From assembly GCA_964576615.1 (NCBI GenBank), contig CAZNUU010000002.1, forward strand, positions 27,428 through 91,427: a stretch of 64,000 nucleotides of DNA. The letters run 5' to 3'. A model generated the notes under the pieces. The model made no database searches and had not been told where the DNA came from. It worked only from the letters and a program-made list of their open reading frames with translations. Of the stretch, positions 8,037-38,663 are shown piece by piece. Position 1 is the first letter of the stretch, and every line of letters begins with the position of its first letter. Both the position numbers and the translations under genes were made by a program. This DNA comes from an uncultured Candidatus Saccharibacteria bacterium. Its GTDB lineage: Bacteria; Patescibacteriota; Minisyncoccia; Phycocordibacterales; DATDWN01.

Positions 8037-8078
8037 AACCCCGTGCCGTGAAGCACGAGGCTCCACCTTACACGGGGT
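8037..8078 (-). terminator. Rho-independent terminator after the membrane-protein gene (accccgtg...cacggggt + T-run)
   Basis: GC stem with following T-run on the minus strand. Near-identical in architecture to the terminator at 10963-10991. Confidence 0.6.
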
Positions 8079-8458
8079 CAGAATTTCTTCACTGCGTTTG
8101 ATGCCTCGACGCTGTAGCCGCAGAGGAAGGCCAGGCCCAGAGCACGATCGCGGGCTTGATGCCAGCGGTGGATCTCTTTTTGGAGATCTTCCCAAGATTC
8201 GCTCCATCCAAGCATCTCCGTCATCCTGTCGCCAGGAAGATTGCCTTTCCGGTAGTTGTCGAAGTGGTTGTATGCCTGCCGGACTTTGTACTGCAGATCC
8301 TCCAGAACATCCGTGACCACAAGGTGAGGGAGATCCGGACCGTAAATCTTGCAGAACTCGATCGCGCAACGCTTTTCGAACGTTTTGCTATCGCGTTTCA
8401 AATACAGCGTGACAACAACCCCAAACACGAACCAGGCGGCAGCGATCAAATAGATCAT
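8078..8458 (-). CDS. Hypothetical small membrane protein (N-terminal TM, ~100 aa cytoplasmic domain), GC-rich cassette 1
   Basis: 126 aa, MIYLIAAAWFVFGVVVTLYL TM segment. Preceded by the conserved leader repeat C that ends in SD GATGAGGT. Confidence 0.5.
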   Translation of the reverse strand: MIYLIAAAWFVFGVVVTLYLKRDSKTFEKRCAIEFCKIYGPDLPHLVVTDVLEDLQYKVRQAYNHFDNYRKGNLPGDRMTEMLGWSESWEDLQKEIHRWHQARDRALGLAFLCGYSVEASNAVKKF

Positions 8459-8462
8459 ACGT

Positions 8463-8530
8463 TACCTCATCCAGGGTTCCAGCCCTGGCAACTCGCTGGG
8501 TCCTTCCCAACGATCTATCGGGACAATACC
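8463..8530 (-). promoter_or_regulatory. Conserved 5'-leader repeat family C, copy 1 (hairpin CAGGGCTGGAACCCTG overlapping SD)
   Basis: cctcatccagggttccagccctggcaactcgctgggtccttcccaacgatct. About 85% identical copy at 11373-11440, in the same position upstream of another small TM-protein gene. Confidence 0.6.
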
Positions 8531-10933: not shown

Positions 10934-10962
10934 GGAATTTTATTTATTATAGCAAAAAGGAA

Positions 10963-10991
10963 AACCTCGTGCCCGGCAGAAACACGAGGTT
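10963..10991 (-). terminator. Rho-independent terminator (aacctcgtg...cacgaggtt + T-run on minus strand)
   Basis: Stem similar to the 8037-8078 terminator. A second cacgaggtt follows at 11001-11009. Confidence 0.55.
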
Positions 10992-11007
10992 CCCGCCAAA
11001 CACGAGG

Positions 11008-11367
11008 TTATTGAACGAATCTTGCCACCGTTTTGCCATAGCCATTGATCATGCCTATACCAATGGCTCGGTCAAGTCGGCGCTGGGCCTTCCTCACCCT
11101 TCTCTCGGCGTCCTTGAAGTTTGCCTCACATTTCGACTCGTAGACTTTATTGGCACTTGATTTCGCCTGGGCTAGAAAGGCCCGGCAGGTGTTCATCCAT
11201 TCACGCTCGTTATTGAGATCAGCAGTGATTCGGACGAGCCTCAGATCGATCTCGTAATCACCGAAGGACCCGAAGGCAGGGAGGAGAGACCAAAATCGGA
11301 GCGGGGGGATGTACGGCCAGAAAACAAATGCGAAGAATACGATCGGAAACACAATGCTCATACTCAT
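11008..11367 (-). CDS. Hypothetical small membrane protein, GC-rich cassette 2 (possible paralog of 8078-8458)
   Basis: Start set at MSMSIVFPIVFF (SD GAGGTG inside repeat C) by analogy with cassette 1. The track ORF extends through the leader only because no stop intervenes. Confidence 0.45.
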   Translation of the reverse strand: MSMSIVFPIVFFAFVFWPYIPPLRFWSLLPAFGSFGDYEIDLRLVRITADLNNEREWMNTCRAFLAQAKSSANKVYESKCEANFKDAERRVRKAQRRLDRAIGIGMINGYGKTVARFVQ

Positions 11368-11372
11368 ACAAC

Positions 11373-11440
11373 ACCTCATCCAGGGTTTCAGCCCCGGCAA
11401 CTCGCGGGGTTCTTCCTCGCGATCTGCAATAAACAATACT
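11373..11440 (-). promoter_or_regulatory. Leader repeat family C, copy 2
   Basis: cctcatccagggtttcagccccggcaactcgcggggttcttcctcgcgatct. Confidence 0.6.
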
Positions 11441-11461
11441 ACTTTTAACAAATACTGTCAA

Positions 11462-12151
11462 CTACTCCCAGCCTCGAGATTTTAGGGCCTTCTGTGCTGC
11501 CTCCTGTTCAGCCTCTTGTTTAGAATCGCCTTCGCCTGTCGCAATTAGATCTTTGCCTACGTAAACACCAACTGTAAATTTCTTTTTGTGATCTAAACCA
11601 GATTCCTTAACTGTTTTATAAACTGGAGTAATACCATCAAATTCTTGGGCTTTCTCTTGAAAAAGAGATTTGGCATCAATAAATTTTTTGCCAGAAATAA
11701 TATTATCTATGAGCGGAGTAAAATGCTTATGTATAAAATCTGTCGCAGTTTTTAAACCTTGATCAATATAAATTGCACCAATTAATGCCTCGAGAGCGTT
11801 TGCCAAAATATACTGCCTCGCCCGGCCAGTGTCTTTTGATTCGCCTTTTGATAATAAAAGATAATCTGACATTCCCAATTCCTTGGCAATTTCTGCACAG
11901 GTGTCTGCATTGACTAGAGCCGAACGATAAGCAGTTAAATCGCCTTCTGGTTTTGTTGGAAATTTTTTGTAGAGAAAATCTGTGGTCACAAGCTCCAAGA
12001 CAGCGTCGCCCAAAAATTCGAGGCGCTCATTATGCGAGAGTCCAGAATTTCTATTTTCGTTTATAAATGAACGATGAACAAAGGCTTGTTTTAAAACATC
12101 TTTATCTTTGAAATTTATACCTATTTTTTTTTCGAATTTTGAGTAATCCAT
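11462..12151 (-). CDS. rnc: Ribonuclease III
   Basis: ERLEFLGDAVLELV RNase III signature, C-terminal dsRBD. Confidence 0.9.
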   Translation of the reverse strand: MDYSKFEKKIGINFKDKDVLKQAFVHRSFINENRNSGLSHNERLEFLGDAVLELVTTDFLYKKFPTKPEGDLTAYRSALVNADTCAEIAKELGMSDYLLLSKGESKDTGRARQYILANALEALIGAIYIDQGLKTATDFIHKHFTPLIDNIISGKKFIDAKSLFQEKAQEFDGITPVYKTVKESGLDHKKKFTVGVYVGKDLIATGEGDSKQEAEQEAAQKALKSRGWE

Positions 12152-12310
12152 CTTTTAATAATACCGCTAGATACGGCTAAGTCACTGTAAAACTTTCAGA
12201 TTTGGATGTAATTCGAGGCGAAATGTAAAAAAGAATTCGAGCCTTACAAACTCGTAAGGTGAGGATTATTTTTGACATTTCAACGAAGAAGTACGCCAAA
12301 TGTGGAAGTT

Positions 12311-13213
12311 TTACTTTTTAAGCAGAACATTTATCGCCTTGGTGACTAGAGGTAGAATATCATTATAGAAGTTAAGGTCAAGGATATCTGCAAGCTTAAA
12401 CCATTTTGCGTCGTCTAAGCCGCCTTTGACCTCCGGATGCAGATCCTGAAACTTGGCCTCCGCAATAAAATAAGTAACATGCTTTTTTACCTTGCCCTTT
12501 TCTGGGTGATAGGATATATATTCATTTTCACCCAGCTTTTCTTTTATTTTTATATCAATACCTAACTCTTCTTTTATTTCTCTTATCGTCCCCTCTTCCA
12601 CGGTCTCTTCTTTTGTCTCGGGACTATCACCTATTTTGCCTTTAGACAGTGTCCAGCGACCAAAAACATCGTGAACCAAGGCTAAATAAATTTCGTCACC
12701 CTCTTTGGCATAAACAACTGCTCCTCCCAAATACTCATTGGTCACATGCCCGTTTTTGTGTTTGCGATCTTTAGAGCTTTGGTCCTTGCCTGGTTCACCC
12801 AGTTCTTTGTAAACAGCGCCTAGAACACCATTTACGAATTTACTAGATGTATCGGAGCCAAATGTTTTGGATAGTTCAATTGCCTCGTTTATTGCTACCT
12901 TGGGAGGTACTTCGTTTCTATTGGCAAACAAAAGTTCCCACAGCCCAATTCTCAAGATATTTCTATCGACAATACTTATTTTACTTATCGGCCAATCCGG
13001 TGCAGCTTTTTCGATAATTAAATCTATATCTCTTTTTTTATCCAGTACACCGTTAAGGAGATTCTCCATAAAGGAGAGGTCTGCATGACCAGGCGCAAAT
13101 TCATCTACATTTCTTTTGAAAATTTCTTTTACCTCTTTTGAGCTCTTGGAACCGAAATCCCATTCAAAAAGAGTTTGAAGAACTATGGATCTGGAAAGAT
13201 GCCGATTTGCCAT
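12311..13213 (-). CDS. nusB: NusB antitermination factor fused to a C-terminal Nudix hydrolase domain
   Basis: 300 aa. N-terminus SIVLQTLFEWDF...NRNILRIGLWELLF is NusB-like. C-terminus carries Nudix box GTIREIKEELGI. Confidence 0.7.
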   Translation of the reverse strand: MANRHLSRSIVLQTLFEWDFGSKSSKEVKEIFKRNVDEFAPGHADLSFMENLLNGVLDKKRDIDLIIEKAAPDWPISKISIVDRNILRIGLWELLFANRNEVPPKVAINEAIELSKTFGSDTSSKFVNGVLGAVYKELGEPGKDQSSKDRKHKNGHVTNEYLGGAVVYAKEGDEIYLALVHDVFGRWTLSKGKIGDSPETKEETVEEGTIREIKEELGIDIKIKEKLGENEYISYHPEKGKVKKHVTYFIAEAKFQDLHPEVKGGLDDAKWFKLADILDLNFYNDILPLVTKAINVLLKK

Positions 13214-13254: not shown

Positions 13255-13473
13255 CTAGTTCCTGTTTGCTTTTTCCTTCTTTGCTTTCTTGGCAAGTTTT
13301 GCCTGCATATCAACGACTACTCTGCCTTTATATTGGCCAGTAACTAATGAAGCTCGGTGGCGGAGGTGGGGTACGTTTGTATTTTTATCCAAAGTTGTGG
13401 CAGGAGAAGAAAGAGCGAAGTGAGATCGCCTGTTGTTTCGGTGGCTTTTTGTAGAACGCATTCGTACAACCAT
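13255..13473 (-). CDS. rpmF: 50S ribosomal protein L32
   Basis: MVVRMRSTKSHRNNRRSH...HLRHR matches L32. Confidence 0.8.
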   Translation of the reverse strand: MVVRMRSTKSHRNNRRSHFALSSPATTLDKNTNVPHLRHRASLVTGQYKGRVVVDMQAKLAKKAKKEKANRN

Positions 13474-13568
13474 GATTGGCTACTTTACATTATTAGTTAT
13501 AAAAAATCAAATCCTCCTTTACGAAAAACCACCGGCCGAAACCGGGGTCTGCCTCGTGAAATATCGCT

Positions 13569-14009
13569 TTATTTCACGAGGCCAAAATACTTGAGTGTCT
13601 CCAGAAGGCCGGGTTGGTGAGACCGGCACACCGAAACCTGAGCCCTGGTTCGACTCACCCATTCCGGCGGCAGGATGATTTCCGTACCATCTCGAATGGG
13701 TTTGTCTCGAAGCTGACCTTCGAAATCGGAATCCTGGAAAACGAAAAAGGTTTTCGGCTGACCACGATCGACCACGCTGAGTTCCGTAAGTGGTACAGCT
13801 TTTTCCTTGAGCCGGCGGCCAGTTTCGTCTCTGGTCTCTCGAGCTGCTGTTCCCCTCTTGGTTTGATCCTTCTTACTCCTCATTCCCCCCGGAAAGCCCA
13901 CTTTCTCAGGGAAACGAGGGTTATCCGGTATACTCTTCTGAACGAGGAGTTCGAGGGATTGATCTCGCCCCCTTACAGTCACAATCCCAGCCCACCACTT
14001 CTTTCGCAT
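13569..14009 (-). CDS. Nudix hydrolase (GC-rich, foreign-looking codon usage)
   Basis: 146 aa, Nudix box AARETRDETGR, SD AGGAGAG, own GC-stem terminator at 13545-13590. Confidence 0.6.
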   Translation of the reverse strand: MRKKWWAGIVTVRGRDQSLELLVQKSIPDNPRFPEKVGFPGGMRSKKDQTKRGTAARETRDETGRRLKEKAVPLTELSVVDRGQPKTFFVFQDSDFEGQLRDKPIRDGTEIILPPEWVSRTRAQVSVCRSHQPGLLETLKYFGLVK

Positions 14010-14063
14010 GACGCTCTCCTGTATTTACAGTACCACACCACCTTGAATTAGTAAATAGACAGT

Positions 14064-14657
14064 TTATTGGGCCATATTAAAGCTTTTTCTGTGAATTTCT
14101 GATAAGCCGTGTTTTCTGATAAGAGACTTGTGTTTTTTTGTTCCGTATCCCTTGTGAAGTTCAAACTTATATAATGGATATTTCTGTGCTTCTTTTTTCA
14201 TGAGTTCATCCCGAGAGACTTTTGCCAAAATAGAAGCCCAGGAAATTATTTTTTCTTTCTCATCACCCTTAATAATTGTTTTTTGATTATTAAACCTGAG
14301 TGGGGCTTTTAGAGAACCGTCAAGCAAAATTTTACTTGCCGAATTGATTTTTAAATTCTCAATTGAATTTTCAATCCCCTTCTTTATTGCAAACGAAAGC
14401 CCCCTCTTGTCTATTATTTTGTTTGAGATATGTGATATTGAATAATTAATTTTTCCCTCTTTTTTTAATTTATTTAAAATCGCTGCAAACTTTTCTCTCT
14501 CTGGACTTTTGAGTTTTTTGCTATCTATTCCTCTTGCTGGAAGATTTTTTGATTTTTTTAATTTTGTATAGGTACTCTGTAAGCACGCAAGTGCACAGAC
14601 TGTAACAGGACCCGCCAGAGGGCCTCGACCAACTTCATCGACACCAACTATGATCAT
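14064..14657 (-). CDS. rnhB: Ribonuclease HII
   Basis: MIIVGVDEVGRGPLAGPV catalytic N-terminus. Confidence 0.9.
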   Translation of the reverse strand: MIIVGVDEVGRGPLAGPVTVCALACLQSTYTKLKKSKNLPARGIDSKKLKSPEREKFAAILNKLKKEGKINYSISHISNKIIDKRGLSFAIKKGIENSIENLKINSASKILLDGSLKAPLRFNNQKTIIKGDEKEKIISWASILAKVSRDELMKKEAQKYPLYKFELHKGYGTKKHKSLIRKHGLSEIHRKSFNMAQ

Positions 14658-14713
14658 AATTAGATTTTAAAACACGAAGGCCGCCGACGCTAGAAGCGTG
14701 GCGGCCAAAGAAG

Positions 14714-15280
14714 CTAGAGACCAGAGTCCCGAAACGACTGCCCGAAACCGTCTACCCCAAGAGCCTTTCGCGCAAGTGGCAGAAACGGGTCCGGGTGTAA
14801 TTCAGCCTGAGCACTTGGAGTTTCGAGTGGGGGTGTGGGCTCGAATACAACCCGAGCGGTTTCCCCCAGCGTCTCGCGCACGATCCGGTTTGGATTGAGC
14901 TCGGCCTCAGTCATTTCTCGAGGTGGATCGATCTTCACCACAACCGCACGGGCCGCCTCCGTCACGTCATGGACGAACTTCGGATCCCAGTTGTTGTTGT
15001 AGGTATCGAGCATCACACCGTCCTTCTGGGCACGGCAACGGTTCACGACCTCGACCAGCCGGACAAGTTCCGCGATCGGTAGAACAGAGACCATCCTCTC
15101 GACCAGCAAGAGCTCGTCGAGAATATCACTGAGCTTGGCATGAACATCGCCGGTTCGGTTGAGGTCTTTTTTCCCTTCCGGAGTGGCGATCACACCTTCG
15201 TTCAGGCTCTCGGCGAGCCCTTCGACCAGTACCCGCAGGTTGCGAGTACCGGTTTGCAGATTGTTGCACAGCCAATTCAT
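14714..15280 (-). CDS. Hypothetical protein, GC-rich cassette
   Basis: 188 aa, SD GGGAGGT 5 nt before ATG, GC3-rich, no recognisable motif. Confidence 0.4.
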   Translation of the reverse strand: MNWLCNNLQTGTRNLRVLVEGLAESLNEGVIATPEGKKDLNRTGDVHAKLSDILDELLLVERMVSVLPIAELVRLVEVVNRCRAQKDGVMLDTYNNNWDPKFVHDVTEAARAVVVKIDPPREMTEAELNPNRIVRETLGETARVVFEPTPPLETPSAQAELHPDPFLPLARKALGVDGFGQSFRDSGL

Positions 15281-15524
15281 TTGAACCTCCCGACCCTGAA
15301 CAGGTCAACGGCTTTTCTTACGATCTCGGACTGAGACACGGTATCCAGAAGATGCGTGATGTAATGAACACCAGGCACCCCAGCCACATACCATGCCATT
15401 GCACTTAGAATGTGTCGCACATCGCCTCCATAGTTAACTTGTTTTCCGTTTTCATTATGGTGAATATAGCTATGCTTGTCAAAGTCAGATTCCAAAAATT
15501 GCGTGATATAATTCAAAAAATTCT

Positions 15525-18923: not shown

Positions 18924-19041
18924 TTCTTACACTTGTGGTTAGGGAAGCATGTGCTATGTTTTAAAATAATGAATTTGGTTAAAAGTTGTAATAAGAAAAG
19001 ATCTCGCACTGACACGATACGAGATCTTGTCTTGTGCGAGA

Positions 19042-19287
19042 TCAACAGTTGAGGAGAAGGAACGGGACCGTATTTTCTCCCTCCGGGACATCGCCAATGA
19101 GGTCACGAGTAAAGTACGGAAATGTCCCCTTACCACCCGCAGGAGGTTTTTGTTCGCCATTACGGGTCAAACGATACCGACCACGTGCGAGGATACTTCC
19201 GTCGCCCAGATCGATTTCGTCACCTGTCGCGAGATCGCGATCGACTTCTACGAGCAACCAGAGCCCAGGTCCGATAATTGCTTGCAT
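19042..19287 (-). CDS. Hypothetical protein, GC-rich cassette 3
   Basis: 81 aa. SD AAAGGA. Hairpin terminator at 18996-19031. Overlapping ORFs in all frames (GC-rich), so the call is weak. Confidence 0.3.
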   Translation of the reverse strand: MQAIIGPGLWLLVEVDRDLATGDEIDLGDGSILARGRYRLTRNGEQKPPAGGKGTFPYFTRDLIGDVPEGENTVPFLLLNC

Positions 19288-19380
19288 GAGTGTTGTCCTT
19301 TCTAGGGCATAGATTACTAGAAACTAAACGAGTGTCAAATGAAAATGCGCCGGGGATTCCGGCGCATTGGGTACGAGCGA

Positions 19381-19623
19381 TTACGATTGACTTCGCTCGT
19401 GTTCAAGCATTTTCCGAGTTTGTCGAAACCTCGAATTCAAGACTCGGTCGCTGGACTTCCTCACATAGACCATGGAAGAAGCAGCAAGAACACAGACGGT
19501 TGCAGGGATGAAGTAGTAAACATTGCGGGAAAACCACCCTGTCGCAAAAAAGATTGCGCACAGAACCCAGGTCAGGCTCTCGGTGTTTTGCCACCATCGG
19601 CTCGACCAAATCGTTTTGTTCAT
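19381..19623 (-). CDS. Hypothetical 2-TM membrane protein, GC-rich cassette 3
   Basis: Perfect SD AAAGGAGG 4 nt before ATG. Terminator aatgcgccgg..ccggcgcatt at 19345-19372. Confidence 0.5.
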   Translation of the reverse strand: MNKTIWSSRWWQNTESLTWVLCAIFFATGWFSRNVYYFIPATVCVLAASSMVYVRKSSDRVLNSRFRQTRKMLEHERSQS

Positions 19624-19853: not shown

Positions 19854-21113
19854 ATGTCGGAACATAAAACAAGAGAAAATAACGGCGAGATGGACGAGAA
19901 TGACCATCGAGTGCTAGGTAAGGAACTGGATCTATTCACTTTCTCAGATACAGTTGGCAAAGGCCTACCCCTTTATACCGAAAAGGGCGCGGCTATTCGT
20001 CGTGAGCTAGAAAGATTTATCATCGATGAAGAAATAAGACGCGGCTACAAACACGTTTCGACTCCGGATATAGCAAAACTAGATCTGTACGAGAAATCTG
20101 GTCACTATCCCTATTACAAGGATTCAATGTATGCGCCAATTGAAATTGATGAGGAGAAATTCATGCTGCGGCCAATGACTTGCCCCCATCATTTTGAACT
20201 TTATCTATCAAGACCAAGAAGCTATCGTGAATTACCAATGCGCATCGCCGAAGTAGCCAAACTTTATCGCTACGAAAATTCTGGCAATCTTGCGGGATTG
20301 GTACGGGTCAGATCTTTCTGTCTCGCCGATGGTCACATTATTTGTGCCGACAAAGATCAAGCTAGAGAAGAAGTAAAAGCCGCGCTTAGACTTATTGAAG
20401 ATGTTGTAGGAGTTTTTGGTTTGAAGAAAAATGAGGATTTTTGGTACAGACTTTCTTTGGGCGACCGCAAAGATGATAACAAATACTACAAAGATGACGC
20501 GGCTTGGGATGAGGCAGAGGGAGTCTTGCGAGAAGTTTTACAGAATCAGGATGTAAGATTTGAAGAGGCTGAAAACGAGGCTGCCTTTTACGGACCGAAG
20601 ATAGACATCCAGATGAAAGACGCTCGCGGCCAGGAAAATACTGCCTTTACTGTGCAATACGATTTCGTTATGCCAAAAAGATTCCACTTGGTTTACGTCG
20701 ACAAAGATGGCAAAGAGAAACTAGCGATAGTAATTCACCGTTCTTCCATTGGCGCAACCGAAAGAATAATGGCTTTCCTCATTGAAAAATACCGAGGTAA
20801 CTTTCCTCTCTGGCTGTCCCCTGTTCAAGTTAAAGTTATTCCGGTTCGAGAAAATCATAACGCTAAAGCTCGAGAAATTTTTGAAATGCTCCGCGATGCT
20901 GGAATTCGTGTTGAAATAGATGAAGCGGATGAAAATCTCGGCTCCAAAGTTCGTGATGCCAAAGTAAATAAAATTCCTTACTGGGTTGTTATTGGCGACA
21001 AAGAAGTTGAGTCTGGCAAACTTGCTTTGGAATCTCGCGATGGTAAAAAATCTGAACTTGATTCAGAAGAGCTTCTCGCCAAACTCCAAAAAGAAATTAA
21101 AGAAAAGAAATAA
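19854..21113 (+). CDS. thrS: Threonyl-tRNA synthetase, short form (catalytic core + anticodon-binding domain only)
   Basis: 419 aa. DHRVLGKELDLF and class II motifs. Lacks the TGS/editing N-terminal ~240 aa. Confidence 0.85.
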   Translation: MSEHKTRENNGEMDENDHRVLGKELDLFTFSDTVGKGLPLYTEKGAAIRRELERFIIDEEIRRGYKHVSTPDIAKLDLYEKSGHYPYYKDSMYAPIEIDEEKFMLRPMTCPHHFELYLSRPRSYRELPMRIAEVAKLYRYENSGNLAGLVRVRSFCLADGHIICADKDQAREEVKAALRLIEDVVGVFGLKKNEDFWYRLSLGDRKDDNKYYKDDAAWDEAEGVLREVLQNQDVRFEEAENEAAFYGPKIDIQMKDARGQENTAFTVQYDFVMPKRFHLVYVDKDGKEKLAIVIHRSSIGATERIMAFLIEKYRGNFPLWLSPVQVKVIPVRENHNAKAREIFEMLRDAGIRVEIDEADENLGSKVRDAKVNKIPYWVVIGDKEVESGKLALESRDGKKSELDSEELLAKLQKEIKEKK

Positions 21114-21119
21114 GCGAAG

Positions 21120-21150
21120 AGCCCGCCAGAGGTTGCTGACGGGCTCATGA
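21120..21150. terminator. Bidirectional terminator between convergent thrS and the zinc-finger gene
   Basis: gagcccgccagaggttgctgacgggctc hairpin. Confidence 0.55.
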
Positions 21151-21158
21151 ATGTACTC

Positions 21159-21650
21159 TTAGGAGTGGAAACGGTCAGTAGGCGGAAGAAGACGGCTGAG
21201 CTGCTCCCGACGTTGCCTGAGTTCGTCGATCTCGCGTTCCGCAGCCTTTCCTCGCTGGACAGTCTCATCCTTGTCGGAAATGAGTTGATCAGTCCGTAGC
21301 AGTTCGTGCCGCCGCGCCTGGACCAGACCAAGTTTCAGGACATGGTCCAGGGCTTCAATGACACGGTAGATCGAGACTCTCCCCCCATCTGTAGGCAGAC
21401 TGCTCTGGACGGCCCCTAGTACGGAACCTGCGCTTACAGATTGCCATCTGGTGATGAGCTCGAGATCATCTGCCCGAACCCTGACGACACTGTCCAGACC
21501 CATCTCGAATGTGAGTTCAGTCGTGAGAAGGATGTCCTTGCAGACTTCCACACACTCATCGCAGATGTAAACCACCGGGCCAGAGATGAGCTTCTTCACA
21601 TCACACTGTGCCTTGTTGCAGAACGAACAACGAAGAATCTCTTTTGTCAT
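21159..21650 (-). CDS. Stand-alone ClpX-type zinc-binding domain protein with unknown GC-rich C-terminal domain
   Basis: [34 protein letters not shown] matches zf-C4_ClpX. No AAA+ domain. Start set to M7 (SD GAGAGGTG) because -10 TATAGT / -35 TTGACA on the minus strand place the TSS downstream of M1. Confidence 0.55.
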
Positions 21651-28920: not shown

Positions 28921-29005
28921 GCAGGGATGAGTCTAACAAAAATATAAGAGAGGCGCAACCTAAAATTGAAGTGCCTCGGGGGTAAGCCGAGGCACTCGAG
29001 ATACG

Positions 29006-29377
29006 TCAAGGGTTCGCAGCTGGATACGTGCGCACAGAACTCAAGGGATCGTAGCAGCCATATACCCGGAGCTCGTCACCACTTTGATCGTTGAACCAAA
29101 CTCTTCCATAGCATTCCTTGTAGCTGGCCTTCTCGTAGAGCACGACATCTGCCCCCGACTGCGACAGGTTTCTGACTTCCAGAATCCTGAAGACCTCGGT
29201 CTTACTCCACGGTGGCCGCGTCGGGATAGATTTCTCGGCCCGAGCTTTCCACTTGTTGAAGTTACTAGCCACCTTCTCCTGCTCGGCAAGAGCCTGAGAA
29301 TCAGCCCGCTTCAGCCCCGAGAGGTATCCTCCTCCAAACAGCATGACGATAGCAAGAACAACCCAAAACCTCCGCAT
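29006..29377 (-). CDS. Hypothetical membrane-anchored protein, GC-rich cassette 4
   Basis: Start set to ATG MRRFWVVLAIVML with SD AGGAGGTG at ideal spacing (track start is GTG 6 nt upstream). GC-stem terminator at 28962-28992. Confidence 0.5.
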   Translation of the reverse strand: MRRFWVVLAIVMLFGGGYLSGLKRADSQALAEQEKVASNFNKWKARAEKSIPTRPPWSKTEVFRILEVRNLSQSGADVVLYEKASYKECYGRVWFNDQSGDELRVYGCYDPLSSVRTYPAANP

Positions 29378-29419
29378 ATCCACCTCCTGTTAAAGAGAAT
29401 ACGTGTTAAAAATTCCCTG

Positions 29420-30361
29420 TCAAGAATTGCTCATCGCCTCAATAATCGGCTCTATTCTGCCATCTAGTACACCTTCGATATTGTGCCAAGATTGTTTTAT
29501 TCTGTGGTCGGTAACCCTATCCTGTAAAACGTTATACGTCCGTATCTTCTCGGATCTGTCTGCCGTGCCTATCTGGCTTTTCCTATCTGCAGAATACTTA
29601 GCAGATTCCTCTTCGTCTTTCATCATTTGAAGCTTCGCCAGAAGAATCGACATTGCCTTCTCACGATTTTTGAGCTGACTCCTTTCCGCAGTTGAGCGAA
29701 CATCAATTCCAGTTGGCTTGTGAATAATTCTTACGGCTGTCTCTACTTTGTTTACGTTCTGTCCCCCCGCCCCGCCAGAGCGCGATGTCTCAATCTCCAA
29801 GTCAGACGGTGAGACAACAATATTTGTTTTTTTTCTAATAGGTAAAATAGCAACTGTAGCAGTTGAGGTATGAACTCTTCCGATTTTTTCTGTCACTGGC
29901 ACCCTCTGAACCCGGTGAACTCCTGTCTCAAAGCGCAAACTTTTGTAAACATCCTTCCCTCTTATTTCAAATGAAGCTTCTTTATATCCCCCTGTGGAAC
30001 TAAGGGACTCGTTTATAAGATTTACTGTCCAGCCTTTGCCTTCGGCATAACGTCGATACATATGAGCTAATTCCCCTGCAAAAAGCGAGGCTTCTTCTCC
30101 CCCCGCGCCGGCTCTAACTTCTAAAACTATCTCATTTGGAAATTCTTCTTCCTTTTCGTCTTCTTTAACAATATCCTGCATCTGGTTTAAAATAGCTTCT
30201 TTTTGTAAAGCCAAATCCGCAAGCTCTGTCTGTGCAAGCTCCATTAAACTCGAGTCTCCATCGAGCATTTTTTTGGTCTCACCTTCCTTTTTCTCGAGCT
30301 CTTTATAACTTTGAGCTAGGTAGGAGGTTTTTGGATTTTGTAAGTATTTTTCCAGGTCCAT
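29420..30361 (-). CDS. prfA: Peptide chain release factor 1
   Basis: GGQ motif [11 protein letters not shown] and PVT (PxT) tripeptide [17 protein letters not shown]. Confidence 0.85.
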
Positions 30362-33910: not shown

Positions 33911-34015
33911 ATATTTAAATTATACACCAAATATAGACGTTCCGTCTGGCAAATTAATACAAAAATTTGTTGTCTAAAGATTTTTCATTATAATGTTTCT
34001 TAGAGGAGGAGGCTA

Positions 34016-34756
34016 ATGCGACATACGCAACGCGGCCTCTTCCACGGAAGAGGCAAAAGAAACTTCAACGGCTGGCTGCCTGGGATGGACACCAAGATCA
34101 AAGACGGAGGGCGGTTTGGGGAAGGCTTGATCCAACATCTTTTGGGAGGAAGGCAGAGTGAGTCAGCTAGCTCGGGAGAGGCAGACATCTGGCGAGAGGA
34201 CCTTGATCTCGGTATCGAGGTTAAGACTCACTCAAACACAGATCCTCTGCGGATCCCGGAGAGTCAACTCGACTCACATCTGGATATCTGTCAGTGCGGC
34301 TTCCCGTATTCCTATTGCTGGTATGCCATCGTCAAATACAGAAACATTAGACGAGGAGATGGATACCTCTTTCAAGCCAGTTCTGGATCACAAGAGAAAA
34401 CAGAACTGTTCTTGAAAGAAAACACGACAGCGGTTTATGTTCTCGACATCTCTGTCGTCGACGCAATCAGGAAATTTCGGGGAAACTGTATCCGAATGTG
34501 GCGAAGCCACGAGCATCAAGCCGCCGTTCGGATCAGGTGGAGCTACTTGCGAGAATTCGAAGTCTCACCCAAAGAAGCCTTGGCGCTCCTAAACCTAGAC
34601 CCTCGAAACTATCGAGCGGAGGCAAGGAGTGTACAGGTTTCTTTAGGCGGCACCTTCATGCAGTTCCCCTTCGTTCTCTGCGTTCATCGGAAATCGCTGG
34701 GAAGAGCTCACAGAAAAAAACAGCTCAACCTCTTTCCGATAGAGGAGAAAAGCTAA
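34016..34756 (+). CDS. Hypothetical protein, GC-rich single-gene cassette 5 (possible PD-(D/E)xK-type nuclease motif D..EVK)
   Basis: SD GAGGAGGAGG, GC3 ~60% against ~35% for neighbours, EDLDLGIEVKT motif. Followed by a strong terminator. Confidence 0.4.
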   Translation: MRHTQRGLFHGRGKRNFNGWLPGMDTKIKDGGRFGEGLIQHLLGGRQSESASSGEADIWREDLDLGIEVKTHSNTDPLRIPESQLDSHLDICQCGFPYSYCWYAIVKYRNIRRGDGYLFQASSGSQEKTELFLKENTTAVYVLDISVVDAIRKFRGNCIRMWRSHEHQAAVRIRWSYLREFEVSPKEALALLNLDPRNYRAEARSVQVSLGGTFMQFPFVLCVHRKSLGRAHRKKQLNLFPIEEKS

Positions 34757-37549: not shown

Positions 37550-37555
37550 AAGCGA

Positions 37556-37588
37556 ACGCCCGTGCAGTGTTAGTGCACGGGCGTAGAA
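37556..37588. terminator. Bidirectional terminator cgcccgtgcagtgttagtgcacgggcg
   Basis: Perfect 10-bp GC stem between convergent genes. Confidence 0.65.
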
Positions 37589-37591
37589 GAA

Positions 37592-38110
37592 CTAGGCCGA
37601 CTTTTTTCCTCTGGGTAAATAGGCGCGATAGTCCCCATCCTTTACCTGAACGAGCCTTGGGAAGGTTGAAGCTAGATTTTTGAAATTGAGGAAACTACGG
37701 TATGCAGTGGCCTCCTCATCAACCAACTGGGCCTTCACCCTATCAAAATCGTCCTTAGTCCTGCCTAAAGCAGCAAGTCCTCCTTGTCTGAAACGCTCGA
37801 GGGTGTCGACGGCATCTTGATAACTTTGGGCCTTTAGACCCAACTGTTGATCAACCTCTTCTTGAAGAACCTCCTGCCTCGAGAAACAGTTGTAAAAAAC
37901 CTCCATCTCCCGCCAGTTTCCATACGCGCGGTCGAGCTCACTTCTCTTTCTCAGGATGTAGAGAGAAAGGGAAGCTAGGGCGCCGCCGAGAAAAGCAACG
38001 AACGCGAGCAAGATGTACGGGTGAACCAAGTTCCTCTCCGGTCCGGCAAGCCGAACCATGAGCATGGATGAGACGAGCGCGCTGAGCACGAATAAGCCAG
38101 TGTAGGCCAT
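37592..38110 (-). CDS. Hypothetical 2-TM membrane protein with ~110 aa soluble domain, GC-rich cassette 6
   Basis: 172 aa, GC3-rich. Possible distant similarity to 8078-8458 and 11008-11367 (TM + W/E/Y..A..F..R motifs) is weak. Confidence 0.45.
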   Translation of the reverse strand: MAYTGLFVLSALVSSMLMVRLAGPERNLVHPYILLAFVAFLGGALASLSLYILRKRSELDRAYGNWREMEVFYNCFSRQEVLQEEVDQQLGLKAQSYQDAVDTLERFRQGGLAALGRTKDDFDRVKAQLVDEEATAYRSFLNFKNLASTFPRLVQVKDGDYRAYLPRGKKSA

Positions 38111-38263
38111 AACTCACCTATCTTCCCCACAACTCGGGTAATCCAAGTTGGTAGGACATCGTCCATGGGGAGTTTTCTCCCTTAATTAAAATCTTTTAAA
38201 GACAAAAGTCAATTGCTATCCGTTATATAAAACTTCAGCGCGGATTTCTCCGCGCCGAAAAGT

Positions 38264-38614
38264 CTAGTACATCTCTTCCCTGATTCTAGAGAGCTCGAGG
38301 ATCACGGAAGGATCCGTGATTTTCTGGAATCGTGGAATAGTTTGTCCGTCCTTCTCCACTTCCCCCATCCACATCTCGAGTGGTCTGCCGTCGAAACAAG
38401 GCACGCCAAGCTCTTTTGAGGCCTTGTAGACCGACGACTCATAAAGTGGGATGTAACTCACGAAGTGCTCTTCCCCAGGGCGTGGATGATCTTCTGTGTG
38501 AAATATTACGCCAATAACCTCGTAGGCGTAGTTGTTCACGGGACCTGCGGGGTCATGCTTGTAGTGATAGTAGAACCCTACTTCTGGAACTTGCTTGGGC
38601 ATTGGTAGCGCCAT
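38264..38614 (-). CDS. Hypothetical protein, GC-rich cassette 6
   Basis: Start set to MALPMPKQVPEVGFYYHYKHD with SD GAGAGGAGAG. The upstream part of the track ORF overlaps tkt. Terminator gcgcgga-tttc-tccgcgc at 38232-38255. Confidence 0.4.
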   Translation of the reverse strand: MALPMPKQVPEVGFYYHYKHDPAGPVNNYAYEVIGVIFHTEDHPRPGEEHFVSYIPLYESSVYKASKELGVPCFDGRPLEMWMGEVEKDGQTIPRFQKITDPSVILELSRIREEMY

Positions 38615-38663
38615 AACTCTCCTCTCTAAAATTAATCTAGCTAATTTAGTAATTAAAAACAAG

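What the first reader, a model, noticed from the sequence alone, without database searches (positions are those of the whole stretch)
12311..13213. NusB fused to a Nudix hydrolase domain
The 300-aa protein has a full NusB fold signature at the N-terminus and a complete Nudix box (…EGTIREIKEELGI…) in the C-terminal 150 aa, joined by a Lys/Ser-rich linker. A Nudix (possibly RNA-decapping or nucleotide-sanitising) activity physically tethered to the antitermination machinery would be a novel link between nucleotide metabolism or RNA 5'-end chemistry and rRNA transcription.
Basis: partly seen in the sequence, partly recalled or inferred. Interest (0 to 1): 0.6.

Follow-up and report, generated by a model that had tools for sequence, protein, structure and literature searches.

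The report
NusB fused to Nudix-fold domain
This is a real gene, conserved in hundreds of Parcubacteria (CPR) species, that joins the rRNA antitermination factor NusB to an Ap4A-hydrolase-type Nudix domain, but the Nudix catalytic residues are often lost in relatives, so the extra domain most likely works as a nucleotide-binding or docking module and not as an obligate enzyme.

Summary
Window 12311-13213 (minus strand) encodes a 300-aa protein with a bona fide NusB domain (residues 1-138), a disordered Lys/Ser-rich linker (139-157) and a Nudix-fold domain (158-300).

The fusion is not a frameshift or a merged-gene artefact:
- All 240 top database clusters are full-length with both domains.
- At least 581 species-level Patescibacteria genomes carry this Nudix half.
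- In 78 of 80 genomes examined, one uninterrupted frame spans both halves; the other two are cut by contig ends.
- It sits in a conserved rpmF-nusB::nudix-rnc cluster (74 of 80).

The interpretation needs correcting. The Nudix half belongs to the Ap4A-hydrolase (NUDT2-like) clade, not to RppH, NudC or Dcp2. The window copy keeps REIKEELGI, but a 5-aa insertion breaks the Gx5E spacing.

Across orthologues the catalytic REx2EE is intact in only 46/120 close relatives, 44/80 species genomes and 9/57 divergent cluster representatives. The rest of the domain, including the equivalents of the phosphate-binding Lys and base-stacking Tyr, stays equally conserved whether or not the motif is intact.

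The conserved role is therefore binding, regulation or docking on the antitermination complex, with hydrolysis optional. I found no description of this architecture in the literature searched. I rate it a new variant of a known kind, of moderate interest.

The parts
12311..13213 (-). nusB::nudix fusion gene, 300 codons plus stop (12311-12313)
   Evidence: ORF. Both Pfam domains above gathering cut-offs. 100% identical protein in an independent assembly. Full-length orthologues in 78 of 80 species genomes.
12800..13213 (-). NusB domain, residues 1-138 (seven helices)
   Evidence: PF01029 E 3e-34 and TIGR01951 126.9 bits above its 88.35 cut-off. AF2 pLDDT 81-95. Foldseek TM 0.89-0.92, rmsd 1.8-1.9 A to NusB in NusB-S10 (3imq) and NusB-NusE-BoxA (3r2c). 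F126 = AaF122, D83 = AaE81, F16 = EcY18, all conserved.
12743..12799 (-). Flexible linker, residues 139-157 (GEPGKDQSSKDRKHKNGHV). The GEPGK start is conserved; the rest varies in sequence and length.
   Evidence: Translation. pLDDT below 50 for residues 141-155 and pTM 0.49. G139, P141 and G142 invariant in close relatives. Family linker length 7-43 residues, median 23.
12314..12742 (-). Nudix-fold domain of the Ap4A-hydrolase (NUDT2-like) clade, residues 158-300
   Evidence: PF00293 E 5e-11. Family profile against PDB: Aquifex Ap4A hydrolase E 2e-19, CT771 3e-15, Ndx1 2e-13, C. elegans and human Ap4A hydrolases 6e-12 to 2e-11. Foldseek TM 0.84-0.88 to 3i7u.
12557..12640 (-). Nudix box region, residues 192-219 (GKIGDSPETKEETVEEGTIREIKEELGI). 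The REUXEEXGU core is intact in this copy.
   Evidence: Translation. Family statistics for R211, E212, E215 and E216.
12617..12631 (-). 5-residue insertion (GDSPE, residues 195-199) that breaks the canonical Gx5E spacing. It is shared by a subgroup of 43 of 177 members.
   Evidence: Alignment A1, translation, spacing counts.
13255..13473 (-). rpmF (ribosomal protein L32), the conserved upstream neighbour on the same strand
   Evidence: PF01783 E 2e-10. Upstream of the fusion in 75 of 80 species loci and in the most divergent members.
11462..12151 (-). rnc (RNase III), the conserved downstream neighbour on the same strand
   Evidence: PF14622, PF00636 and dsrm hits. Downstream in 79 of 80 species loci. 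Its start overlaps the fusion's stop in P0167.
12152..12310 (-). 159-nt spacer between the fusion gene and rnc. It folds into a long hairpin containing a terminator-like stem plus U-tract, and is much longer than in relatives (overlap to about 36 nt).
   Evidence: Terminator-like site at 12254-12238 and a promoter-like site at 12185-12158. RNA fold -34 kcal/mol, z = -3.5, 0 of 200 shuffles as stable. Relatives' spacers.

Best explanation
The gene encodes the cell's NusB, extended through a flexible linker of about 20 residues by a Nudix-fold domain derived from an Ap4A-hydrolase-type enzyme. Shown: the fusion is real, ancient and under purifying selection in a large Parcubacteria/Paceibacterota clade of Patescibacteria, always in an rpmF-nusB::nudix-rnc cluster. 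Shown: the NusB half keeps the residues that bind BoxA RNA and S10. Shown: the two domains are predicted to fold independently. Shown: the catalytic Glu/Arg of the Nudix helix are repeatedly lost, while the rest of the domain stays conserved. That includes the equivalents of the phosphate-binding lysines (K191, K244) and the base-stacking aromatics (Y232, Y283) of Ap4A hydrolases. Inferred mechanism: the NusB half nucleates with S10 on BoxA of the nascent rRNA leader, as in other bacteria. The tethered Nudix-fold domain acts near the RNA exit of RNA polymerase as a binding module for a nucleoside-polyphosphate moiety. That moiety could be a free dinucleoside polyphosphate or NTP-type signal, or the 5' tri/tetraphosphate (Np4-capped) end of the leader. 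This would couple rRNA antitermination and processing to that ligand. Copies with an intact REx2EE core, such as this window's, may also hydrolyse the ligand, but hydrolysis is not the conserved function.
For: The fusion is real and conserved. Synteny with rpmF and rnc holds in 74 of 80 species and in members at 36-37% identity. NusB is authentic. F126 is 57/57, D83 54/57 and F/Y16 53/57 among divergent representatives, with residue roles taken from PMC3177189. Independent domains: pLDDT 84, pTM 0.49, linker pLDDT about 35. Ap4A-hydrolase clade. The catalytic motif is not conserved. REx2EE is intact in 46/120, 9/57 and 44/80. E212 is Glu in 52/120 and 13/57. Catalytic columns rank 106-122 of 142. 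There is no decay after motif loss: non-box identity is 83-84% in broken-motif pairs and 84-85% in intact pairs at NusB identity of 70-90%. Pocket equivalents are conserved in divergent members: K191 53/57, aromatic at 232 in 51/57, K/R244 in 50/57, Y283 52/57. Their roles in Ap4A hydrolases come from PMC4734340 and PMC2425470. Precedents: CF Im25, an RNA-processing factor whose Nudix fold lacks two Glu, binds Ap4A and does not hydrolyse it. NrtR/AraR Nudix sensor domains are among the structural and profile hits.
Against: No ligand, partner or activity was tested, so the identity of the ligand is a guess. The conserved Lys and aromatic residues are partly generic fold residues of this Nudix clade and could be conserved for stability alone. 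Their mapping to C. elegans, human and Plasmodium residues rests on an HMM alignment that is uncertain by one residue around Y232/I233. The Nudix half is mildly acidic (median net charge -4), which does not favour direct RNA-backbone binding. E216 is invariant in close relatives, and about half of the species nearest the window keep the full motif, so catalysis may matter in this subclade. No BoxA-like element and no S10 gene lie in the window, so the NusB-S10-BoxA step could not be checked for this organism.
Confidence: 0.5

Rival explanations
1. One reading: an active Nudix pyrophosphohydrolase is tethered to the antitermination complex. It could be an ApnA hydrolase, an RppH-like 5'-end or Np4-cap-removing enzyme, or an NTP-sanitising enzyme. 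Catalysis near RNA polymerase or on the rRNA leader's 5' end would be the selected function, at least in the subclade that includes this window.
For: The window copy has an intact REIKEELGI. E216 is invariant in 120/120 and 80/80 close relatives. 44 of 80 nearest species keep REx2EE, and 28 of 43 in the subgroup with the 5-aa insertion. The closest solved relatives are active Ap4A/Ap6A hydrolases. The neighbour rnc is an rRNA-processing nuclease.
Against: The motif is broken in 45% of the nearest species, 62% of close clusters and 84% of divergent representatives. The general-base/metal Glu (E212) is replaced by G, K, V, I or A. The catalytic columns are among the least conserved of the domain. 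Motif loss leaves the rest of the domain equally constrained. The Gx5E loop is interrupted in this copy. The equivalent of the C. elegans E103 is an invariant Gly. The RppH model scores far below its cut-off (16.9 against 118 bits).
Confidence: 0.25
2. Pure scaffold. The Nudix fold has been co-opted as a protein-protein docking domain with no small-molecule ligand. It might bind RNA polymerase, NusA/NusG, S4, RNase III or a ribosomal protein. This would be analogous to the enzyme-fold protein SuhB, which is a structural subunit of the E. coli rRNA antitermination complex.
For: Catalytic residues are dispensable. The domain's surface is strongly conserved among close relatives, for example the invariant C-terminal helix LNFYNDILPLVTKAINILLKK. 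The domain is acidic, which suits binding to basic ribosomal or RNA-binding proteins. SuhB gives a precedent for an enzyme fold inside the rrnTAC (abstracts of PMC6614801 and PMC6614797). Operon coupling with rnc is tight, including a stop/start overlap.
Against: The residues that stay conserved at long range are the equivalents of the nucleotide-pocket residues of Ap4A hydrolases, not a novel surface patch. The C-terminal helix is poorly conserved in divergent members (mean 0.27). No partner was identified, and AF2 does not dock the domain onto NusB itself (pTM 0.49).
Confidence: 0.2
3. Artefact: two adjacent genes (nusB and a Nudix gene) merged by a sequencing or assembly frameshift or a lost stop codon.
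For: None found. The only apparently stand-alone Nudix halves (P0223, P0258) looked like candidates at first.
Against: P0223 and P0258 start 39 and 23 bases from contig ends, so they are truncations. 78 of 80 species genomes have one frame and the other 2 are contig-end cuts. Hundreds of independent assemblies from NCBI, JGI, ENA and Logan give full-length proteins. The junction motif ELGEPGK is conserved.
Confidence: 0.01

Closest known systems
Bacterial NusB (E. coli, Aquifex aeolicus, Thermotoga maritima; PF01029 / TIGR01951)
   Same: The N-terminal 138 residues match the equivalog model above its cut-off. They have the same all-helical fold (TM about 0.9). They keep the BoxA-U8 stacking Phe (F126), the acidic residue equivalent to AaE81 (D83) and the NusE-interface aromatic (F16).
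   Different: Canonical NusB is a single-domain protein of about 140 aa. This one carries an extra C-terminal domain of about 145 aa on a flexible linker. Neither a BoxA element nor an S10 gene could be examined in this window.
Ap4A/ApnA hydrolases of the Nudix superfamily (Aquifex aq_158 3i7u, Chlamydia CT771, Thermus Ndx1, C. elegans and human NUDT2)
   Same: These are the best profile and structural matches (E 2e-19, TM 0.84-0.88). They share the W-T-x-x-K-G motif, the phosphate-binding Lys equivalents (K191, K244) and the aromatic equivalents (Y232, Y248, W271, Y283).
   Different: Those are stand-alone enzymes with strictly conserved REx2EE. Here the motif is lost in most orthologues, the equivalent of the C. 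elegans E103 is Gly, this copy has a 5-aa loop insertion, and the domain is fused to NusB.
CF Im25 / NUDT21 (eukaryotic pre-mRNA 3'-processing factor)
   Same: A Nudix-fold domain working inside an RNA-synthesis/processing machine. Its catalytic Glu residues are missing, and it binds Ap4A (Kd 2.4 uM) and ATP without hydrolysis (PMC2425470). This is the closest functional analogy for the motif-broken orthologues.
   Different: It is not a close sequence relative (different Pfam family, NUDIX_4). It is not fused to a transcription factor, and it binds RNA through additional elements. The window copy still has all of REx2EE.
NrtR / AraR Nudix-related transcriptional regulators
   Same: A Nudix domain fused to a transcription-regulating module and used as a ligand sensor and not as an enzyme. 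Both appear among the structural and profile hits (3gz8, 5bs6).
   Different: In those proteins the partner is a winged-helix DNA-binding domain that controls initiation. Here the partner is an RNA-binding elongation/antitermination factor. The ligand of NrtR is ADP-ribose, whereas this domain is of the Ap4A-hydrolase clade.
RsmB (NusB-like N-terminal domain fused to a 16S rRNA m5C methyltransferase)
   Same: A precedent for a NusB-fold RNA-binding domain fused N-terminally to a second domain acting in ribosome biogenesis. RsmB models hit residues 31-151 weakly.
   Different: The RsmB N-domain is a paralogue, not the housekeeping NusB, and its partner domain is an obligate enzyme. Here the NusB half scores as the true NusB equivalog.
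SuhB in the E. coli rRNA antitermination complex
   Same: A protein with an enzyme fold (inositol monophosphatase) recruited as a structural and regulatory subunit of the NusB-containing complex (PMC6614801 and PMC6614797 abstracts).
   Different: SuhB is a separate polypeptide with an unrelated fold. Whether these Patescibacteria lack SuhB was not tested.

Membership tests
NusB (PF01029 / TIGR01951 equivalog) | Profile match above the curated cut-off | tested here: met
   PF01029 118.6 bits against 23.1. TIGR01951 126.9 bits against 88.35.
NusB (PF01029 / TIGR01951 equivalog) | All-helical NusB fold superposable on NusB from NusB-S10(-BoxA) complexes | tested here: met
   AF2 model with seven helices, pLDDT 81-95. 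Foldseek 3imq TM 0.92 with rmsd 1.9 A; 3r2c/3r2d TM 0.89 with rmsd 1.8 A.
NusB (PF01029 / TIGR01951 equivalog) | BoxA U8 pocket residues (AaNusB F122 stacking, E81 H-bond) and the NusE-interface aromatic (EcNusB Y18) | tested here: met
   F126 is 177/177. D83 is 120/120 and 54/57. F/Y16 is 120/120 and 53/57. Mapped through the HMMER alignment to 2jr0. Residue roles come from PMC3177189.
NusB (PF01029 / TIGR01951 equivalog) | Cognate BoxA RNA and S10 partner present; antitermination activity | tested here: inconclusive
   No BoxA consensus above chance in the window (7 matches against 11 expected). No rRNA operon in the window. No S10 gene in the window. Activity is not testable with these tools.
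Nudix superfamily (PF00293) | Profile match above the gathering score and the alpha/beta/alpha Nudix fold | tested here: met
   43.3 bits against 21.1. Foldseek TM 0.84-0.88 to 3i7u, and 430 PDB hits with E <= 1e-3, mostly Nudix.
Nudix hydrolases (catalytically active) | Nudix box GX5EX7REUXEEXGU in this copy | tested here: inconclusive
   EX7REUXEEXGU is present (E203...R211 E212 I K E215 E216 L G218 I219). The G-to-E spacing is x10, not x5, because of the GDSPE insertion.
Nudix hydrolases (catalytically active) | Catalytic/metal-binding R-E-x-x-E-E conserved among orthologues | tested here: not met
   Intact in 46/120, 44/80 and 9/57. E212 entropy ranks 122 of 142 in the close set. The rest of the domain is equally conserved after motif loss.
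Nudix hydrolases (catalytically active) | Pyrophosphohydrolase activity on a nucleoside-diphosphate-X substrate | not testable with these tools
   Needs an enzyme assay.
Ap4A hydrolase (NUDT2-like) clade | Closest profile and structure relatives are Ap4A/ApnA hydrolases | tested here: met
   3i7u E 2.3e-19, 4ilq 2.5e-15, 1vc8 2.2e-13, 1kt9 5.7e-12, 3u53 1e-11. Dcp2 scores only 6e-10. Foldseek rank 1-2 is 3i7u.
Ap4A hydrolase (NUDT2-like) clade | P1-phosphate Lys of the PKG motif, the loop-L5 Lys, and the two adenine-stacking aromatics | tested here: met
   K191 (Ce K36), K244 (Ce K83), Y232/I233 (Ce F75/Y76) and Y283 (Ce Y121) are conserved in 50-53 of 57 divergent members. Roles come from PMC4734340 and PMC2425470. 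The mapping is alignment-based inference, uncertain by one residue at 232/233.
Ap4A hydrolase (NUDT2-like) clade | Catalytic Glu outside the box (C. elegans E103 equivalent) | tested here: not met
   It aligns to G265, which is Gly in 120/120 and 39/57. That E103 is catalytic is recalled from my own knowledge of the C. elegans enzyme and was not checked in a paper here.
RppH / NudC / Dcp2 RNA 5'-end decapping Nudix enzymes | Family-level sequence match | tested here: not met
   RppH model NF001936 scores 16.9 bits against a cut-off of 118. NAD+ diphosphatase NF001299 scores 15.4 against 158. Nudt16-like scores 16.5 against 27. Dcp2 and NudC are only distant structural hits.
Non-catalytic Nudix-fold binding/regulatory domains (CF Im25, NrtR, TRPM2-NUDT9H type) | Nudix fold retained while catalytic Glu residues are lost | tested here: inconclusive
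   Met for most orthologues but not for this window's copy, which keeps REx2EE.
Non-catalytic Nudix-fold binding/regulatory domains (CF Im25, NrtR, TRPM2-NUDT9H type) | Binds its ligand without turnover and thereby regulates the attached or partner module | not testable with these tools
   Needs binding and functional assays.

The most novel reading that the evidence does not exclude
NusB of Parcubacteria is a ligand-gated antitermination factor. The Ap4A-hydrolase-derived domain would sense a dinucleoside polyphosphate or related alarmone, or read the 5' polyphosphate/Np4 cap of the nascent rRNA leader. It would thereby tune rRNA antitermination and RNase III processing. Ancestral hydrolytic turnover would survive only in some lineages, as a signal-resetting activity. 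This would be the first example of small-molecule control acting directly through a Nus factor.
Probability: 0.2. Interest if true: 0.75.

Novelty: new variant of a known kind. Interest (0 to 1): 0.45.

Why it matters
NusB is a universal bacterial elongation factor that has been studied almost only as a small single-domain protein. A large, uncultivated radiation (at least 581 species-level genomes) has instead kept, probably for a very long time, a two-domain NusB. Its second domain descends from an Ap4A hydrolase but no longer needs its catalytic residues.

If that domain binds a nucleotide signal or an RNA 5' end, it would directly link nucleotide or alarmone status to rRNA transcription and processing in organisms with minimal regulatory repertoires. 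It would also add a bacterial counterpart to CF Im25-type non-catalytic Nudix domains in RNA machines.

There is a practical point as well. The family is annotated simply as 'transcription antitermination factor NusB', which hides the extra domain. A naive annotation as an active Nudix hydrolase would be wrong for most members.

Tried and rejected
1. Split-gene test. Apparent stand-alone Nudix halves in the 50%-cluster library (P0223, P0258) turned out to be genes cut by contig ends, followed by rnc. They give no evidence for separate genes.
2. BoxA search (GCTCTTTAACAA, up to 2 mismatches). 7 hits against 11 expected, so nothing above chance. Rfam finds only 4 tRNAs in the window and no rRNA leader to inspect.
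3. S10/NusE. Not encoded in the window, so the partner residues could not be checked.
4. AFDB fold search. The library was unavailable.
I repeated it with the closer alignment A5.
6. Taxon names for the most divergent fusions. The listing of cluster members returned none, so I used genomic context instead.
7. RNA-binding by charge. The Nudix half is acidic (net about -4, pI 5.4) and the linker is neutral on average, so I rejected a simple basic RNA-binding surface.
8. RppH, NudC, MutT and Dcp2 identities were considered and rejected on model scores and ranking.
9. Relation between the fused Nudix half and the neighbouring 146-aa Nudix ORF. No significant similarity (best BLASTP E 0.08). PHROGs gives only a marginal Nudix hit for it and nothing for the other GC-rich ORFs.
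10. Literature. Full-text searches for NusB + Nudix, Nudix + candidate phyla radiation and NusB + Patescibacteria found no description of the fusion. The Nudix-clan review PMC5389931 does not mention NusB.
Full report

Yes. Window 12311-13213 holds a 300-codon ATG-to-stop ORF on the minus strand.
- Pfam finds NusB at residues 7-136 (E 3e-34) and NUDIX at residues 166-283 (E 5e-11). Both are well above their gathering scores.
- The NCBIfam nusB equivalog TIGR01951 scores 126.9 bits against a cut-off of 88.35.
- The connecting segment GEPGKDQSSKDRKHKNGHV is Lys/Ser-rich.
- AlphaFold2, run on a 66-sequence alignment, gives two confidently folded domains (block pLDDT 81-95) separated by a disordered linker (residues 141-155, pLDDT below 50). 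The overall pTM is only 0.49, so no fixed inter-domain packing is predicted.

One detail of the observation needs correcting. The window's Nudix box is GKIGDSPETKEETVEEGTIREIKEELGI. The EX7REUXEEXGU part is canonical. A 5-residue insertion (GDSPE) lengthens the Gx5E loop to Gx10E. 119 of 177 family members have the canonical spacing and 43 share the insertion.

**2. Is it an artefact?**

No.
- The exact protein occurs in NCBI and, independently, on a Logan-assembled contig with the same neighbours.
- The best 120 clusters (74-100% identity) and the best 120 hits to a family profile (about 55-66% identity) are all 293-352 aa long and carry both PF01029 and PF00293.
- An exhaustive search of 1.84 billion cluster representatives finds full-length matches down to about 33% identity, 57 of them covering both halves.
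All named ones are Patescibacteria: Parcubacteria/Paceibacterota, Zambryski-, Kaiser-, Taylor- and Nomurabacteria, and Minisyncoccia.
- In 78 of the 80 loci fetched, one tblastn segment in one frame runs from the NusB N-terminus to the Nudix C-terminus. The other two are cut by contig ends.
- The two candidate stand-alone Nudix halves I followed up were contig-end truncations.

**3. Context**

The gene lies between rpmF (L32, 13255-13473) and rnc (RNase III, 11462-12151), with smc further downstream and rnhB upstream, all on the minus strand.
- rpmF lies upstream and rnc downstream on the same strand in 74 of 80 species.
- The same order holds in Zambryskibacteria and Nomurabacteria relatives.
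- It also holds in members only 36-37% identical. In one of these the fusion's stop overlaps the rnc start.

This is a compact cluster of translation and rRNA-processing genes. It fits a role in ribosome biogenesis but does not prove one.

**4. The NusB half**

By sequence it is closest to T. maritima, Aquifex and E. coli NusB (E 7e-19 to 2e-15). By structure it superposes on NusB from the NusB-S10 and NusB-NusE-BoxA complexes (TM 0.89-0.92, rmsd 1.8-1.9 A).

I used the HMMER alignment to Aquifex NusB and the residue roles reported in PMC3177189.
- The Phe that stacks on BoxA U8 (AaF122) is F126, invariant in all 177 full-length family members.
- The acidic residue that reads U8 (AaE81) is D83, present in 54 of 57 divergent representatives.
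- The NusE-interface aromatic (EcY18, mutated in nusB5) is F16, which is F or Y in 53 of 57.

I conclude this is the organism's working NusB. I could not check BoxA, because there is no rRNA operon in the window and the consensus is not above chance. I could not check S10 either, because it is not in the window.

**5. The Nudix half: which kind?**

A profile of 30 diverse C-terminal halves matches, in order:
- Aquifex Ap4A hydrolase (E 2e-19)
- Chlamydia CT771 (3e-15)
- Thermus Ndx1 Ap6A hydrolase (2e-13)
- C. elegans and human Ap4A hydrolases (6e-12 to 2e-11)
- Dcp2 (6e-10), then MutT1 and others further down

Foldseek agrees. 3i7u ranks first (TM 0.84-0.88), followed by M. tuberculosis Rv2985/MutT1, the NrtR Nudix domain, Ndx1 and CT771. 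Models for RppH, NAD+ diphosphatase (NudC), MutT and Nudt16 score far below their cut-offs. The domain therefore descends from the Ap4A-hydrolase (NUDT2-like) clade and not from a known RNA-decapping family.

**6. The key finding: the catalytic motif is not what is conserved**

In the alignment of close relatives (at least 74% identity) the Nudix helix reads REIKEELG in some and RGIKEELG, RKVKKELG, QGVKDELG or KRIKDELG in others.

| Sample | Intact R-E-x-x-E-E |
|---|---|
| Close clusters (at least 74% identity) | 46 of 120 |
| Best species genomes | 44 of 80 |
| Divergent full-length cluster representatives | 9 of 57 |

- The Glu of 'RE' (E212) is equivalent to MutT E53 (from my own knowledge) and to C. 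elegans Ap4A hydrolase E52. It is Glu in only 52/120 and 13/57. Elsewhere it is G, K, V, I or A.
- In the close set, E203, R211, E212 and E215 rank 106th to 122nd of 142 domain positions for conservation. Only E216 is invariant.
- This is not domain decay. At matched NusB divergence (70-90% identity), the Nudix half outside the box is 83-84% identical between motif-broken proteins and 84-85% identical between motif-intact ones.
- What stays conserved at long range, among the 57 divergent representatives, is G164, D182, W187, T188, K191, Y232, K244, Y248, W271 and Y283.

I aligned the family to the C. elegans enzyme.

| Window residue | C. elegans equivalent | Role in Ap4A hydrolases |
|---|---|---|
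| K191 | K36 (the Lys of the 'PKG' motif) | Contacts the P1 phosphate |
| K244 | K83 | Contacts the P1 phosphate |
| Y232/I233 | F75/Y76 | Stacks the adenine |
| Y283 | Y121 | Stacks the adenine |

These roles come from PMC4734340 and PMC2425470. The mapping is alignment-based and uncertain by one residue at 232/233. Several of these residues also stabilise the fold, so this point is suggestive and not conclusive.

**7. Most likely mechanism**

Shown:
- The NusB half is authentic.
- The Nudix-fold domain is flexibly tethered and independently folded.
- That domain is under purifying selection whether or not it keeps its catalytic residues.

Inferred:
- NusB-S10 nucleates on BoxA of the nascent rRNA leader, as in model bacteria.
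- This places the tethered domain near the RNA exit of RNA polymerase.
- There the domain binds a nucleoside-polyphosphate moiety through the retained Ap4A-hydrolase-type pocket. The ligand could be a free ApnA or NTP-type signal, or the leader's 5' polyphosphate or Np4 cap.
- Copies with an intact REx2EE, including this one, may also hydrolyse the ligand.

Precedents exist for both elements.
- CF Im25 is an RNA-processing factor whose Nudix fold lacks two Glu residues. It binds Ap4A with a Kd of 2.4 uM and does not hydrolyse it (PMC2425470).
- NrtR and AraR use a Nudix domain as the sensor of a transcription factor (hits).
- SuhB shows that an enzyme-fold protein can be a structural subunit of the NusB-containing rRNA antitermination complex (abstracts).

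I give the binding-module model about 0.5. The 'active tethered hydrolase' reading gets about 0.25; it remains possible for this copy and its subclade. A ligand-free protein-docking scaffold gets about 0.2. An artefact gets about 0.01. The domain's mild acidity (median net charge -4) argues against simple RNA-backbone binding.

**8. Comparison with what is known, and novelty**

Each half is a member of a well-known family. Databases already hold thousands of these proteins, labelled 'transcription antitermination factor NusB', with both Pfam domains precomputed.

I found no paper describing the architecture. The Nudix-clan survey does not mention NusB.

It is best filed as a new variant of a known kind: a lineage-specific two-domain NusB whose accessory domain is a Nudix fold that is catalytically optional and often dead. 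It should not be filed as an RppH-, NudC- or Dcp2-type decapping enzyme, because those family matches were tested and not met. For most orthologues it should not be filed as an active Nudix hydrolase either.

**9. Verdict**

Interest is moderate at 0.45. It is a solid, widespread and apparently undescribed elaboration of a core transcription factor, with a testable hypothesis about ligand control of rRNA synthesis. Its function rests on inference, and the architecture is already visible in public annotation.

Noticed in passing
window 4126-4450, 7551-8525, 10951-11425, 13501-14025, 14576-15425, 19001-19600, 21076-21625, 28926-29425, 33976-34750, 37551-38625: About 10% of the window consists of GC-rich islands (at least 50% GC over at least 300 bp, against 41% overall and about 37% in the housekeeping genes). 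They are wedged between conserved AT-rich genes. Most carry Arg-rich ORFs with no Pfam or PHROG match, often with equally long antisense ORFs. The same islands are present in an independent Logan assembly (L001). 12 of 80 related loci also contain a 300-bp window more than 13 points above their own mean GC. Their origin is unexplained; possibilities are horizontally acquired genes, fast-evolving accessory genes or mobile DNA.
   Followed up: partly
window 13569-14009 (-): A second, stand-alone 146-aa Nudix ORF (PF00293 E 4e-8, non-canonical box RETRDETG, 54% GC) lies between rnhB and rpmF, just upstream of the fusion operon. A terminator-like hairpin follows it at 13545-13532. It is unrelated to the fused Nudix half (BLASTP E 0.08). 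It is absent from the Zambryskibacteria and Nomurabacteria relatives examined. Weak homologues (22-38% identity) occupy the same position in 7 of 80 related genomes.
   Followed up: partly
window 8455-8516 and 11364-11425: A 62-bp direct repeat (84% identity) lies at the edges of the two GC-rich islands that flank smc. It falls within the 5' ends of the GC-rich ORFs 8078-8458 and 11008-11451, so these may be paralogous small proteins with a shared N-terminus.
   Followed up: no
window 12152-12310 (-): The spacer between the fusion gene and rnc is 159 nt here, against overlap to about 36 nt in relatives. As RNA it folds into a long hairpin (-34 kcal/mol, z = -3.5, 0 of 200 shuffles as stable) that includes a terminator-like stem and U-tract. 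A promoter-like site follows just before rnc. It could be a terminator or attenuator, or an RNase III autoregulatory substrate.
   Followed up: partly
P0265 (142 aa; sequence): This protein's N-terminal half looks like a canonical MutT-type Nudix with a perfect Nudix box (GGRIEFGETPERCIVREIKEELGL). Its C-terminal half is very similar to the C-terminal part of the fused Nudix domain (…IGENEYVASDP…GGLDDARWF…LNFYEDMLPII…). It may be a recombinant or a genuine stand-alone relative. Its genomic context was not examined.
   Followed up: no
L090 (P0183) 5001-5900; L089 (P0167) 5001-5900: In the most divergent fusions the C-terminal domain is retained at full length, but Pfam detects it as NUDIX only weakly (P0167) or not at all (P0183). 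Domain-based censuses will therefore undercount this architecture.
   Followed up: partly
L010-L012, L016, L019-L022 and many other loci: Many MAG records carrying this Parcubacteria-type fusion are titled 'uncultured Candidatus Saccharibacteria bacterium'. Their fusion proteins are 60-83% identical to those of Parcubacteria, Paceibacterota and Zambryskibacteria genomes, so the record titles are probably generic or wrong taxonomic labels.
   Followed up: no
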